From the NCBI RefSeq assembly GCF_000026545.1, contig NC_011601.1: a stretch of DNA of 64,000 nucleotides; one strand, given 5' to 3'. A program made the position numbers. Below, piece by piece: positions 6,001 through 9,000 of the stretch; the stretch's first letter is position 1, and each line of letters starts with the position of its first letter. Origin of the DNA: Escherichia coli O127:H6 str. E2348/69. Its GTDB lineage: Bacteria; Pseudomonadota; Gammaproteobacteria; Enterobacterales; Enterobacteriaceae.

Positions 6001-9000
6001 TAGCGGCGAGCACACCGGCAATAAATATTCAGCGTACAGTTTTTCCACCCGTAGCCCCGGCCAGTTGCCCCGACCATAAAATATCGCCACATCAACATCA
6101 TCCGCCAGCTTATCTTCCTGACGATCAACCGCCTGGATTCGAACGTCAATTCCCGGATAAGCTGAATTAAAGCTGGAAAGTCGCGGAACCAACCAATGAA
6201 TGGCGAAACTGGGGAGTAAACTGACCGTCAACGCCCCCTTAGCGCTACGGGCCTGGAGTTTACGCGTCGCTTCGGTTAATTGCGAAAATATCTCTTTGAT
6301 ATCGAGGAAATAGCTTTGCCCTTCCTCGGTCAGCAGGAGTGAACGATTACGGCGGCGGAACAGTTTTAGCCCCAGAAAATCCTCAAGAGACTTGATTTGA
6401 TGACTTACTGCGGCCTGGGTCACAAAAAGCTCTTCTGCTGCGCGAGTGAAACTTAAATGGCGTGCTGCGGCATCAAAAACTCGTAAGGCATTTAGCGGTG
6501 GTAATCGTTTAGACATGGCTTTTAAACTTTGATGTTAAATGAATTTAACAATTAGATCACACTGTGTAACCTATTAGTTTTTTTAATCTGAGCCATTATA
6601 AATTGTCCGTTGAGCTTCTACCAGCAAATACCTATAGTGGCGGCACTTCCTGAGCCGGAACGAAAAGTTTTATCGGAATGCGTGTTCTGGTGAACTTTTG
6701 GCTTACGGTTGTGATGTTGTGTTGTTGTGTTTGCAATTGGTCTGCGATTCAGACCATGGTAGCAAAGCTACCTTTTTTCACTTCCTGTACATTTACCCTG
6801 TCTGTCCATAGTGATTAATGTAGCACCGCCTAATTGCGGTGCTTTTTTTTACCTTGCGATCGCGAATTACTGATCCAGTTCGACCATCTCTTTCACGTCA
6901 GTACGGTTGATCTGCTGTTTGTTGCCATTAGCGTCTTTATACGAAATCATACCGGTATCGTTATCAGTCTGTGGTTTGCCGTCAGAGACGATGGTACGTC
7001 CGTCATTGGTGTGCATCACATAGTTCGAACCGGAACAGGCGCTCAGGGCAAAAGTCAGCATACAGGCAGAAATAATTGCGGCAGTCTTTTTCATCATCTT
7101 CTCCTTAAAGCGATTAATAAATCTTAATAGTATTGATTAACAGGCTAAAATTAACGCCTAACACTATTCAGCATATGTTACTGACGCGGCTTCGCCAGGA
7201 TATCCAGATAATTCTGATGGTTAGCACTCTCCTTGTATCAAAGTGAATTTTGCGTCACGATCGGTGCATCAAGCCGAGGAGTACCATGAACGTTTTTAAT
7301 CCCGCGCAGTTTCGCGCCCAGTTTCCCGCGCTACAGGATGCGGGCGTCTATCTCGACAGCGCCGCGACCGCGCTTAAACCTGAAGCCGTGGTTGAAGCTA
7401 CCCGACAGTTTTATAGCCTGAGCGCCGGAAACGTCCATCGCAGCCAGTTTGCCGAAGCCCAACGCCTGACCGCGCGTTACGAAGCTGCGCGGGAAAAAGT
7501 GGCACAATTACTGAATGCATCGGATGACAAAAATATCGTCTGGACGCGCGGCACCACTGAATCCATCAACATGGTGGCGCAATGCTATGCCCGTCCGCGT
7601 CTGCAACCGGGCGATGAAATTATTGTCAGTGTGGCAGAACACCACGCCAACCTCGTCCCCTGGCTGATGGTCGCCCAACAAACGGGGGCCAAAGTGGTGA
7701 AATTGCCGCTTAATGCGCAGCGACTGCCGGATGTCGATTTGTTGCCAGAACTGATTACTCCCCGTAGTCGGATTCTGGCGTTGGGCCAGATGTCGAACGT
7801 CACTGGCGGTTGCCCGGATCTGGCGAGAGCGATTACTTTTGCTCATTCAGCCGGGATAGTGGTGATGGTTGATGGTGCTCAGGGGGCGGTGCATTTCCCC
7901 GCGGATGTTCAGCAACTGGATATTGATTTCTATGCTTTTTCAGGTCACAAACTGTATGGTCCGACAGGCATCGGCGTGCTGTATGGCAAACCAGAACTGC
8001 TGGAAGCGATGTCGCCCTGGCTGGGCGGCGGCAAAATGGTTCACGAAGTGAGTTTTGACGGCTTCACGACTCAATCTGCGCCGTGGAAACTGGAAGCAGG
8101 AACGCCAAATGTCGCTGGCGTCATAGGATTAAGCGCGGCGCTGGAATGGCTGACAGATTACGATATCAACCAGGCCGAAAGCTGGAGCCGTAGCTTAGCA
8201 ACGCTTGCAGAAGAAGCGCTGGCGAAACGTCCAGGCTTTCGTTCATTCCGCTGCCAAGATTCCAGCCTGCTGGCCTTTGATTTTGCGGGTATTCATCACA
8301 GCGATATGGTGACACTGCTGGCGGAGTACGGTATTGCCCTGCGCGCCGGGCAGCATTGCGCTCAGCCGCTACTGGCAGAATTAGGCGTAACCGGCACACT
8401 GCGCGCCTCATTTGCGCCATATAATACAAAGAGTGATGTGGATGCGCTGGTGAATGCCGTTGACCGCGCGCTGGAATTATTGGTGGATTAATGACAAACC
8501 CGCAATTCGCCGGACATCCGTTCGGCACAACCGTAACCGCAGAAACGTTACGCAATACCTTCGCACCGTTGACGCAATGGGAAGATAAATATCGCCAGTT
8601 GATCATGCTGGGAAAACAGCTTCCGGCTTTGCCAGAGGAGTTAAAAGCGCAGGCTAAAGATATTGCCGGATGCGAAAACCGCGTCTGGCTGGGATATACC
8701 GTGGCTGAAAACGGCAAGATGCATTTCTTTGGCGACAGCGAAGGGCGCATTGTGCGCGGCCTGTTGGCGGTGTTGTTGACTGCCGTTGAGGGGAAAACCG
8801 CCGCCGAATTGCAGGCACAGTCGCCGCTGGCATTGTTTGATGAGCTGGGATTACGTGCGCAACTTAGCGCCTCACGCAGCCAGGGGTTGAATGCGTTAAG
8901 CGAGGCGATTATCGCTGCGGCGAAGCAGGTTTAAGCACAGAACCAGGTCGGATAAGACGTTCGCGTCGCATCCGACCTGATTGTTTACCCCTGACGCGCC

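What the first reader, a model, noticed from the sequence alone, without database searches (positions are those of the whole stretch)
6645..6850. GcvB sRNA whose terminator abuts the convergent ygdI stop
GcvB is divergent from gcvA and its intrinsic terminator T-run ends 17 nt before the ygdI stop codon on the opposite strand, so the terminator hairpin may act bidirectionally for both transcripts.
Basis: partly seen in the sequence, partly recalled or inferred. Interest (0 to 1): 0.25.

Follow-up and report, generated by a model that had tools for sequence, protein, structure and literature searches.

The report
GcvB terminator hairpin shared with ygdI
This is the well-known E. coli small regulatory RNA gene gcvB, and its terminator hairpin also marks where the oppositely oriented ygdI mRNA ends; published 3'-end maps already show this, so it is an ordinary arrangement for convergent bacterial genes.

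Summary
Rfam places GcvB (RF00022, 199 bits, E 1e-46) at exactly 6645..6850 (+). It is divergent from gcvA (5599..6516, -). Its T-run (6843..6850) is separated by 16 nt from the ygdI stop codon (6867..6869, -).

The region is identical to E. coli K-12, so published MG1655 3'-end maps apply. Two independent data sets (Adams 2021 Term-seq; TRS 2023) put the dominant ygdI 3' end at window 6814..6819. That is 3-8 nt past the same hairpin on the minus strand and 32-37 nt inside gcvB.

The element is not a canonical bidirectional intrinsic terminator. The minus-strand tail is ACAUUAAU (3 U of 8; terminator score -45.6, against +32 on the GcvB strand). Across 118 Enterobacterales loci the stem is invariant whether or not ygdI is present, so GcvB sets the sequence. 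In 61 species ygdI abuts it (8-28 nt) and has no terminator of its own.

Steady-state data cannot tell whether RNA polymerase releases at the hairpin or further on, for example by Rho on the CA-rich antisense of the GcvB seed followed by trimming back. Verdict: already known, low interest.

The parts
5599..6516 (-). gcvA, a LysR-type regulator, divergent from gcvB
   Evidence: ORF of 305 aa; Pfam HTH_1 82 bits and LysR_substrate 139 bits; annotated gcvA in RefSeq.
6610..6638 (+). sigma-70-like gcvB promoter (TTGAGC, 17 nt, TATAGT)
   Evidence: Consensus scan. The -10 hexamer ends 6 nt before the Rfam / K-12 5' end of GcvB at 6645. This is a pattern match only.
6645..6850 (+). gcvB small RNA gene (206 nt)
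   Evidence: RF00022, 199 bits, E 1.1e-46, full model. Equals b4443 of NC_000913.3. Identical to K-12.
6707..6736 (+). G/U-rich R1 seed region of GcvB (GGUUGUGAUGUUGUGUUGUUGUGUUUGCAA)
   Evidence: Read from the sequence. These are conserved upper-case columns in the Rfam alignment. Published GcvB-internal 3' ends fall here, at window 6712-6717.
6758..6778 (+). internal terminator-like hairpin plus T6 inside GcvB
   Evidence: Terminator scan; score d = +8.3.
6822..6843 (.). shared hairpin AGCACCGC-N6-GCGGUGCU, all Watson-Crick pairs, so it folds on both strands
   Evidence: -14.3 kcal/mol on the + strand and -15.4 (centroid) on the - strand. The stem GCACCGC/GCGGTGC is essentially invariant across 118 Enterobacterales loci, with two variants.
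6843..6850 (+). T8 run: the GcvB U-tail, which becomes an A8 tract in the ygdI 3' UTR
   Evidence: Published GcvB 3' ends are at MG1655 2942894 (Adams) and 2942900/2942902 (TRS), which are window 6843 and 6849/6851.
6851..6866 (.). 16-nt spacer between the T-run and the ygdI stop codon
   Evidence: The homologous spacer is 8-28 nt in 61 of 77 species with a convergent ygdI.
6867..7094 (-). ygdI (DUF903 lipoprotein); stop codon TAA at 6869..6867
   Evidence: Pfam DUF903, 83.9 bits.
6814..6819 (-). published dominant 3' ends of ygdI mRNA, 3-8 nt after the hairpin and inside gcvB
   Evidence: Adams 2021 supplementary file 1: 2942870 / 2942869 / 2942870 (-) with 36,630 / 1,164,820 / 441,780 reads. 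TRS 2023: 2942865-2942874, summits at 2942868 / 2942866 / 2942865. The coordinate offset of +2936051 was verified.
6657..6761 (-). C-rich, G-poor stretch on the ygdI strand (antisense of GcvB R1); a rut-like candidate
   Evidence: 60-nt windows contain 18-20 C and 6-8 G, giving C/G of 2.25-3.3. Its role as a Rho loading site is inferred, not shown.
7083..7083 (+). peak of a published Rho-dependent termination region on the gcvB strand, antisense to ygdI
   Evidence: Adams 2021 supplementary file 2: 2943134 (+), Rho score 10.25, p 2e-71. Downstream coverage was 44 without BCM and 355 with BCM. The analysis uses 800-nt windows, so resolution is coarse.

Best explanation
The locus is the known gcvA <- / gcvB -> / <- ygdI arrangement of E. 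coli. One perfectly Watson-Crick hairpin (6822..6843) serves both convergent transcripts, but it does so asymmetrically.

On the + strand, the hairpin plus U8 is a strong canonical intrinsic terminator. It is also the 3' Hfq-binding module of GcvB, and that role fixes its sequence.

On the - strand, ygdI has no terminator of its own. Its mRNA runs 24 nt past the stop codon into the reverse copy of the same hairpin and ends 3-8 nt beyond it.

My preferred mechanism is that the hairpin itself causes pausing and release over a weak, A/U-rich hybrid (ACAUUAAU: 7 of 8 are A/U, but it is not a U-tract). Any read-through would be untranslated and would expose the CA-rich antisense of the GcvB seed to Rho. 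The net effect is that ygdI transcription is kept out of gcvB, the gcvA/gcvB control region and gcvA.

Shown: the gene identities, the geometry, the folding on both strands, and both sets of 3' ends. Inferred: that RNA polymerase is released at the hairpin on the ygdI strand, and the Rho backup.
For: Identity and geometry.

The hairpin is equally stable on both strands.

Two independent published maps place the ygdI 3' end 3-8 nt after the stem in three growth conditions. The local read-through statistic R = 1 - readthrough is 0.95 and 1.0 in two TRS data sets.

The +7/+8 ends in TRS match the distance at which hairpin-driven release occurs. The sgrS control in the same Adams table ends 8 nt after its stem.

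The ygdI 3' end is sharpest and most abundant in LB OD 2.0 and M63, where no full-length GcvB 3' end is listed. Converging gcvB polymerases are therefore not needed.

No minus-strand Rho-dependent region is listed around gcvB or gcvA in the BCM experiment.

In 61 of 61 species where ygdI abuts gcvB (spacer 8-28 nt), there is no other terminator-like site for ygdI. The GcvB hairpin is the first stable structure after the stop codon. In Hafnia the spacer is 62-63 nt and ygdI carries its own A-tract/hairpin/T-tract terminator.
Against: The minus-strand tail has only 3 U in 8. Its T-score is 0.44 and d = -45.6, and the consensus scan does not call it.

U-less hairpins usually terminate poorly on their own. 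Wang et al. state that bidirectional terminator elements do not mediate termination per se in vitro.

Adams' 3' ends at +3/+4 are closer to the stem than normal release sites. They look trimmed, and this is the pattern Dar & Sorek describe for Rho-dependent transcripts.

The terminator sequence shows no adaptation to ygdI. The stem and upstream tail are the same in lineages lacking ygdI.

The BCM data were taken in LB at OD 0.5, where ygdI is weakly expressed and gcvA adds background. The absence of a Rho call therefore has little power.
Confidence: 0.45

Rival explanations
1. For ygdI the hairpin is only a 3'-exonuclease barrier. Polymerase reads through it, Rho loads on the CA-rich antisense of GcvB R1 (6761..6657) and terminates near the gcvB promoter or the gcvA 5' region. 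PNPase and RNase II then trim the RNA back to 3-8 nt from the stem.
For: The 3' end lies immediately after a stable hairpin with no U-tract. This is the published signature of Rho-dependent transcripts. C/G is 2.25-3.3 over about 100 nt starting 60 nt downstream of the hairpin, which matches the C-over-G enrichment reported there. The 3' ends are spread over +3 to +8, as expected from nibbling. The minus-strand terminator score is strongly negative.
Against: No minus-strand Rho termination region is listed at or downstream of this site in Adams' BCM DirectRNA-seq table, although that test has low power at OD 0.5. No data were found showing BCM-induced read-through from ygdI into gcvA.
Confidence: 0.35
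2. Collision-driven bidirectional termination (Ju 2019 / Wang 2022 model). The hairpin pauses polymerases from both sides, and head-on plus trailing collisions between gcvB and ygdI polymerases release them.
For: The locus meets the operational description: a convergent pair whose 3' ends overlap across a hairpin that does not resemble an intrinsic terminator on one side.
Against: The ygdI 3' end is 12-32 times more abundant, and at the same nucleotide, in LB OD 2.0 and M63, where no full-length GcvB 3' end is listed. GcvB's own side is a fully canonical terminator (d = +32) that needs no collision.
Confidence: 0.1
3. Pure coincidence of position. The hairpin plays no role for ygdI, whose transcripts end elsewhere.
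For: The terminator sequence is set by GcvB and is identical in species without ygdI.
Against: Two independent 3'-end maps, covering four or more conditions, place the primary ygdI 3' end at the hairpin.
Confidence: 0.03

Closest known systems
GcvB sRNA (Rfam RF00022; E. coli b4443; Salmonella GcvB/IS145)
   Same: Full-length match to the covariance model. Sequence identical to K-12. Synteny is gcvA <- gcvB -> <- ygdI, as tabulated for Salmonella.
   Different: Nothing. It is the same gene.
Overlapping bidirectional terminators between convergent genes (Ju, Li & Liu 2019 SEnd-seq; Wang et al. 2022, ynaJ-uspE model pair)
   Same: A convergent pair with a single hairpin in the overlap. Both 3' ends are sharply defined on either side, with 32-37 nt of overlap. 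One side does not look like an intrinsic terminator.
   Different: One partner is an sRNA with a fully canonical U8 terminator. The two genes are expressed reciprocally, so collisions are unlikely to be required. I could not open Ju et al. to see whether this pair is in their list.
Rho-dependent mRNAs ending at protective 3' stem-loops (Dar & Sorek 2018)
   Same: The ygdI 3' end lies directly after a stable hairpin without a U-tract, with C>G sequence downstream.
   Different: Rho dependence of ygdI has not been demonstrated. No BCM-sensitive region is listed on that strand.
Canonical bidirectional intrinsic terminator (A-tract, hairpin, U-tract)
   Same: A GC-rich hairpin between convergent genes that folds on both strands.
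   Different: There is no A-tract upstream on the + strand. [quoted passage not shown] A true example is the separate ygdI terminator in Hafnia, AAAAACGCCGACC...GGTCGGCGTTTTT.

Membership tests
GcvB RNA (RF00022) | Covariance-model score above the curated gathering threshold over the full model | tested here: met
   199 bits against 42; model positions 1-204 of 204; E 1.1e-46.
GcvB RNA (RF00022) | Divergent from gcvA, with a promoter in the shared intergenic region | tested here: met
   gcvA at 5599..6516 (-) with LysR domains. A sigma-70-like site ends 6 nt before position 6645.
GcvB RNA (RF00022) | Conserved G/U-rich R1 and the CACUUCCUGU (R2) blocks | tested here: met
   Both are present at 6707..6736 and 6779..6788. 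The two-block pattern retrieved 119 genuine Enterobacterales loci and 1 chance hit.
GcvB RNA (RF00022) | Rho-independent terminator with at least 7 U (the Hfq-binding sRNA type) | tested here: met
   8-bp stem plus T8; d = +32. The feature is described in Morita 2015.
GcvB RNA (RF00022) | Hfq-dependent repression of amino-acid transporter mRNAs | not testable with these tools
   Rests on the literature only.
Canonical bidirectional intrinsic terminator | A stable hairpin is encoded on both strands | tested here: met
   -14.3 kcal/mol on + and -15.4 on -; all pairs are Watson-Crick.
Canonical bidirectional intrinsic terminator | A U-tract follows the hairpin on both strands (A-tract upstream plus T-tract downstream) | tested here: not met
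   The + tail is UUUUUUUA. The - tail is ACAUUAAU, with 3 U of 8, T-score 0.44 and d = -45.6. The scan reports no minus-strand site. The same holds in 61 of 61 abutting species.
Overlapping bidirectional terminator of a convergent pair (operational definition, Ju 2019) | The mapped 3' ends of both convergent transcripts overlap across one hairpin | tested here: met
   Met through published data. ygdI ends at window 6814-6819 (-) and GcvB at 6843-6851 (+). The sequence is identical to MG1655.
Overlapping bidirectional terminator of a convergent pair (operational definition, Ju 2019) | Termination depends on converging polymerases and not on Rho | tested here: inconclusive
   No minus-strand Rho region is listed, but the test has low power. 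The ygdI end persists where no full-length GcvB 3' end is listed, which argues against a need for collisions.
Rho-dependent transcript with protective 3' hairpin (Dar & Sorek 2018) | 3' end directly after a stable, U-less hairpin with C>G downstream | tested here: met
Rho-dependent transcript with protective 3' hairpin (Dar & Sorek 2018) | Bicyclomycin-induced read-through past the 3' end | tested here: inconclusive
   Not listed in Adams' supplementary file 2 for the minus strand. The supplements of Dar & Sorek and the Peters 2012 paper were not available.
YgdI/YgdR DUF903 lipoprotein | DUF903 domain and an N-terminal lipobox | tested here: met
   PF06004, 83.9 bits against a cut-off of 27. 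The lipobox L-S-A-C appears at residues 18-21 of the translation.

The most novel reading that the evidence does not exclude
The 32-37 nt overlap could be regulatory rather than incidental. The ygdI 3' UTR carries the exact complement of the GcvB terminator hairpin, with complementary 6-nt loops that could kiss. It becomes very abundant exactly when full-length GcvB is no longer listed: 1.16 million Term-seq reads at LB OD 2.0 and 0.44 million in M63, against 0.04 million in LB OD 0.4. Convergent ygdI transcription, or its 3' UTR acting as a cis-antisense RNA, might therefore help shut GcvB off in stationary phase or poor medium. No evidence for this was found. Independent promoter control of the two genes explains the reciprocity more simply.
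Probability: 0.06. Interest if true: 0.45.

Novelty: already known. Interest (0 to 1): 0.12.

Why it matters
It matters little. gcvB is one of the best-studied enterobacterial sRNAs. Overlapping 3' ends at convergent genes are a described, pervasive class. The ygdI 3' end inside gcvB is already tabulated in two public data sets, although no searchable paper discusses it.

The locus could serve as a convenient natural test case for how a U-less, reverse-oriented terminator hairpin forms an mRNA 3' end. One side is constrained by sRNA/Hfq function and cannot evolve an A-tract. The partner gene is largely off when ygdI is on, which separates the collision, intrinsic and Rho/trimming models. The rut-like antisense of the GcvB seed is also automatically conserved.

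Tried and rejected
Papers and supplements that could not be used:
- Ju et al. 2019 (SEnd-seq list of bidirectional terminators) could not be opened by DOI or PMC id.
- Peters 2012 is not held.
- The supplements of Dar & Sorek 2018 and of Melamed 2016 (RIL-seq) are not held. I therefore could not check their Rho-dependence value for ygdI or look for GcvB-ygdI chimeras.
- The SMRT-Cappable-seq supplements do not mention ygdI or gcvB.
- Full-text searches found no paper that discusses a shared gcvB/ygdI terminator. Papers mention ygdI only as the flanking gene.

Ideas tested and rejected:
- ygdI selects for the hairpin or its flank. Rejected, because the stem and the upstream tail are the same in Morganellaceae, Edwardsiella and the sporadic Enterobacteriaceae that lack ygdI and have csdA directly downstream.
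- Species with long spacers always give ygdI its own terminator. Only Hafnia clearly does, and some Rahnella do so weakly. Yersinia does not by the simple scan.

Exclusions and discrepancies:
- One pattern hit, Paenibacillus L040, is a chance match inside a coding region. L119 is cut by the locus end. Both were excluded.
- Adams' GcvB 3' end at 2942894 (the first U) disagrees with TRS (2942900/2942902). I treat it as a difference between pipelines or as trimming, not as biology.
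Full report
**What is in the sequence**

cmscan against Rfam 15 returns GcvB (RF00022) at 6645..6850 on the + strand. 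The score is 199 bits (gathering 42, E 1.1e-46), with no truncation.

The flanking ORFs are a 305-aa LysR-type protein at 5599..6516 (-) and a 75/76-aa DUF903 protein at 6867..7094/7097 (-) (Pfam). RefSeq annotates them as gcvA and ygdI. K-12 annotates ncRNA gcvB (b4443) at 2942696..2942901, which fixes the offset from window to MG1655 at +2936051.

The window is collinear with MG1655 over 5599..7300. It has 13 substitutions and none between 6565 and 7182, so gcvB, the spacer and ygdI are identical to K-12. The 901-nt locus occurs in 5425 of 5426 complete E. coli genomes.

A sigma-70-like site (TTGAGC-17-TATAGT) ends 6 nt before the GcvB 5' end.

The terminator is an 8-bp, all-Watson-Crick stem (6822..6829 / 6836..6843) with a 6-nt loop and T8 (6843..6850). 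Sixteen bases separate the last T from the ygdI stop codon at 6867..6869.

**Does the hairpin work on both strands?**

Because all pairs are Watson-Crick, the hairpin folds equally well on either strand: -14.3 kcal/mol on + and -15.4 on -. The flanks, however, are asymmetric.

| Strand | Tail after the stem | T-score | d score |
|---|---|---|---|
| + (GcvB) | UUUUUUUA | 4.87 | +32.2 |
| - (ygdI) | ACAUUAAUC (3 U in the first 8) | 0.44 | -45.6 |

The scores are d'Aubenton-Carafa-type values. The consensus scan reports terminators only on the + strand. By sequence, then, this is not a canonical bidirectional intrinsic terminator.

**Published 3'-end maps**

Adams et al. 2021 (eLife, PMC7815308, supplementary file 1) list a 'primary' ygdI 3' end, flagged as antisense to gcvB:

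| Condition | MG1655 position (-) | Reads |
|---|---|---|
| LB OD 0.4 | 2942870 | 36,630 |
| LB OD 2.0 | 2942869 | 1,164,820 |
| M63 | 2942870 | 441,780 |

These positions are window 6819 / 6818, 3-4 nt after the stem (table layout checked against sgrS).

An independent method and data set (TRS, Nat Commun 2023, PMC10687069) gives a primary ygdI terminus at 2942865-2942874 (-). Its summits are at 2942868 / 2942866 / 2942865, which is +5 to +8 from the stem. The statistic R = 1 - local read-through is 0.95 and 1.0 in two data sets and 0.58 in a low-count one.

GcvB ends at 2942894 in Adams and at 2942900 / 2942902 in TRS, with R of at least 0.993.

The two RNAs therefore overlap by 32-37 nt, and one hairpin delimits both.

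On the + strand, Adams' bicyclomycin experiment lists a Rho-dependent region peaking at 2943134 (window 7083), antisense to ygdI. Its Rho score is 10.25, and downstream coverage rises from 44 to 355 with BCM. This fits leaky sRNA terminators whose read-through is cleared by Rho. [quoted passage not shown]

No Rho region is listed on the minus strand between ygdI and gcvA. That experiment was done where ygdI is weakly expressed and gcvA adds background, so the negative result is weak.

**Comparative evidence**

A two-block GcvB pattern retrieved 120 loci from one-genome-per-species contigs. Of these, 119 are genuine, one is a chance hit in Paenibacillus, and one genuine locus is cut short. That leaves 118 analysable loci.

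The stem GCACCGC/GCGGUGC followed by 6-9 T is essentially invariant from Escherichia to Proteus and Xenorhabdus. There is one G-U variant in Yersinia pestis and one compensatory pair in Moellerella.

A convergent ygdI homologue lies within 600 nt in 77 of the 118 loci:
- The spacer is 8-28 nt in 61 of them (mode 16), which covers almost all Enterobacteriaceae and most Serratia.
- It is 33-34 nt in 2 of them.
- It is 43-280 nt in the remaining 14, mostly Yersinia, Rahnella and Hafnia.

In all 61 abutting species there is no terminator-like site for ygdI on its own strand. The tail after the reverse hairpin is ACAUUAAUC in 53 of them, or is even poorer in U. In Hafnia, with a 62-63 nt spacer, ygdI has its own symmetric A-tract/hairpin/T-tract terminator.

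In the 41 loci without ygdI, the next gene is co-directional csdA where a downstream gene could be called. These are Morganellaceae, Edwardsiella and sporadic Klebsiella, Raoultella, Kluyvera intermedia and Serratia oryzae. The hairpin is the same in them.

The conclusion is that GcvB dictates the terminator sequence. The hairpin, the long U-tail and a preceding U-rich stretch make up the Hfq-binding module (Ishikawa 2012, as summarised in Morita 2015). ygdI simply uses whatever hairpin is there. The Hfq requirement for U-rich sequence upstream of the hairpin is the opposite of the A-tract that a symmetric terminator would need.

**Mechanism**

The + strand is a canonical intrinsic terminator. 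For the ygdI strand, three mechanisms fit the steady-state 3' ends.

(a) Hairpin-driven release over a weak A/U-rich hybrid. Seven of the 8 tail bases are A/U, and the TRS ends at +7/+8 match normal release distances.

(b) Read-through, Rho-dependent termination and trimming back to the hairpin. Dar & Sorek 2018 showed that Rho-dependent mRNAs end precisely after U-less hairpins with C>G sequence downstream. Here the antisense of the GcvB G/U-rich seed gives a C-rich, G-poor stretch at 6761..6657, with 18-20 C against 6-8 G per 60 nt.

(c) Collision-driven termination (Ju 2019; Wang 2022).

Option (c) is disfavoured. The ygdI end is at the same nucleotide and 12-32 times more abundant in stationary phase and minimal medium, where no full-length GcvB 3' end is listed.

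I rank (a) slightly above (b), at 0.45 against 0.35. No BCM-sensitive minus-strand region is reported and the +7/+8 ends exist, but the available data cannot separate the two. Under either mechanism, ygdI transcription is kept out of gcvB, the GcvA-controlled intergenic region and gcvA, which lie downstream on the same strand.

**Comparison with what is known, and novelty**

GcvB membership is met on every testable criterion.

The canonical bidirectional-intrinsic-terminator family fails on a defining feature, the U-tract on both strands.

The operational class of 'overlapping bidirectional terminators' (Ju 2019) is met by the published 3' ends, but its mechanistic criteria remain untested.

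The same window shows other convergent junctions whose published 3' ends overlap:
- rlmM/fucR: the rlmM 3' end is at window 4055 in Adams and 4054 in TRS, and the fucR 3' end is at 4145 in TRS.
- csdE/tcdA: the ends lie across the hairpin at about 8946..8978.

The arrangement is therefore commonplace. No searchable paper discusses the gcvB/ygdI case explicitly, but the data are public.

Verdict: the finding is real, correctly read and already known, with low interest. The only non-trivial residue is the untested idea that the abundant ygdI 3' UTR, or ygdI transcription itself, antagonises GcvB when the two are reciprocally expressed.

Noticed in passing
window 6758..6778 (+): A second, weaker terminator-like hairpin (GGTAGCAAAGCTACC plus T6, d = +8.3) lies inside GcvB, just before the conserved CACUUCCUGU block. 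It would give an RNA of about 134 nt.
   Followed up: partly
window 6712..6717 (+): Published GcvB-internal 3' ends fall inside the G/U-rich seed: MG1655 2942768 in LB OD 2.0 (132,094 reads), 2942763 in M63, and 2942765 in TRS. In LB OD 2.0 and M63 they are the only GcvB ends listed, which suggests a processed 5' fragment.
   Followed up: no
window ~7083 (+), antisense to ygdI: A published Rho-dependent termination region on the gcvB strand (MG1655 2943134, Rho score 10.25). It implies that read-through of the GcvB terminator, or antisense transcription, is stopped by Rho before csdA.
   Followed up: partly
window 6657..6761 (-): The antisense of the GcvB seed is strongly C-rich and G-poor (C/G up to 3.3), a rut-like composition. 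It is conserved automatically because the seed is conserved.
   Followed up: partly
window 8946..8978 and 4054..4145: Two further convergent junctions in the window have overlapping published 3' ends. For csdE(+)/tcdA(-), the ends lie across a long hairpin (GGTCGGATAAGACG...CGCATCCGACC): MG1655 2945008/2945034 (+) and 2944988 (-). For rlmM(-)/fucR(+), they are 2940106 (-) in Adams, 2940105 (-) in TRS, and 2940196 (+).
   Followed up: partly
loci L004, L014, L047, L082, L094 and others: ygdI is absent between gcvB and csdA in Morganellaceae and Edwardsiella. It is also absent sporadically in Enterobacteriaceae and Serratia (Klebsiella spallanzanii, Raoultella, Kluyvera intermedia, Serratia oryzae). 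There gcvB is followed directly by co-directional csdA, with an unchanged terminator.
   Followed up: partly
L108, L021 (Hafnia), spacer after the GcvB T-run: Hafnia carries a separate symmetric terminator (A5, hairpin, T5) between gcvB and ygdI. It could serve ygdI and back up GcvB.
   Followed up: partly
window 45403..45490 and 45606..45687 (-): Tandem OmrA/OmrB sRNA genes, scoring 96.6 and 86.1 bits.
   Followed up: no
window 11174..11470 (+) and 58254..58327 (-): Three tandem tRNA-Met(CAT) genes spaced 110 nt apart, and one tRNA-Gly(CCC).
   Followed up: no
window 6857..6864: The 16-nt spacer contains the palindrome GCGATCGC, which includes a GATC (Dam) site. It is not conserved in other genera.
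   Followed up: no
L040 (Paenibacillus sp. 1_12): The only non-Enterobacterales hit to the 22-base GcvB pattern lies in an unrelated coding-like region. About one chance match is expected for a database of this size.
   Followed up: yes
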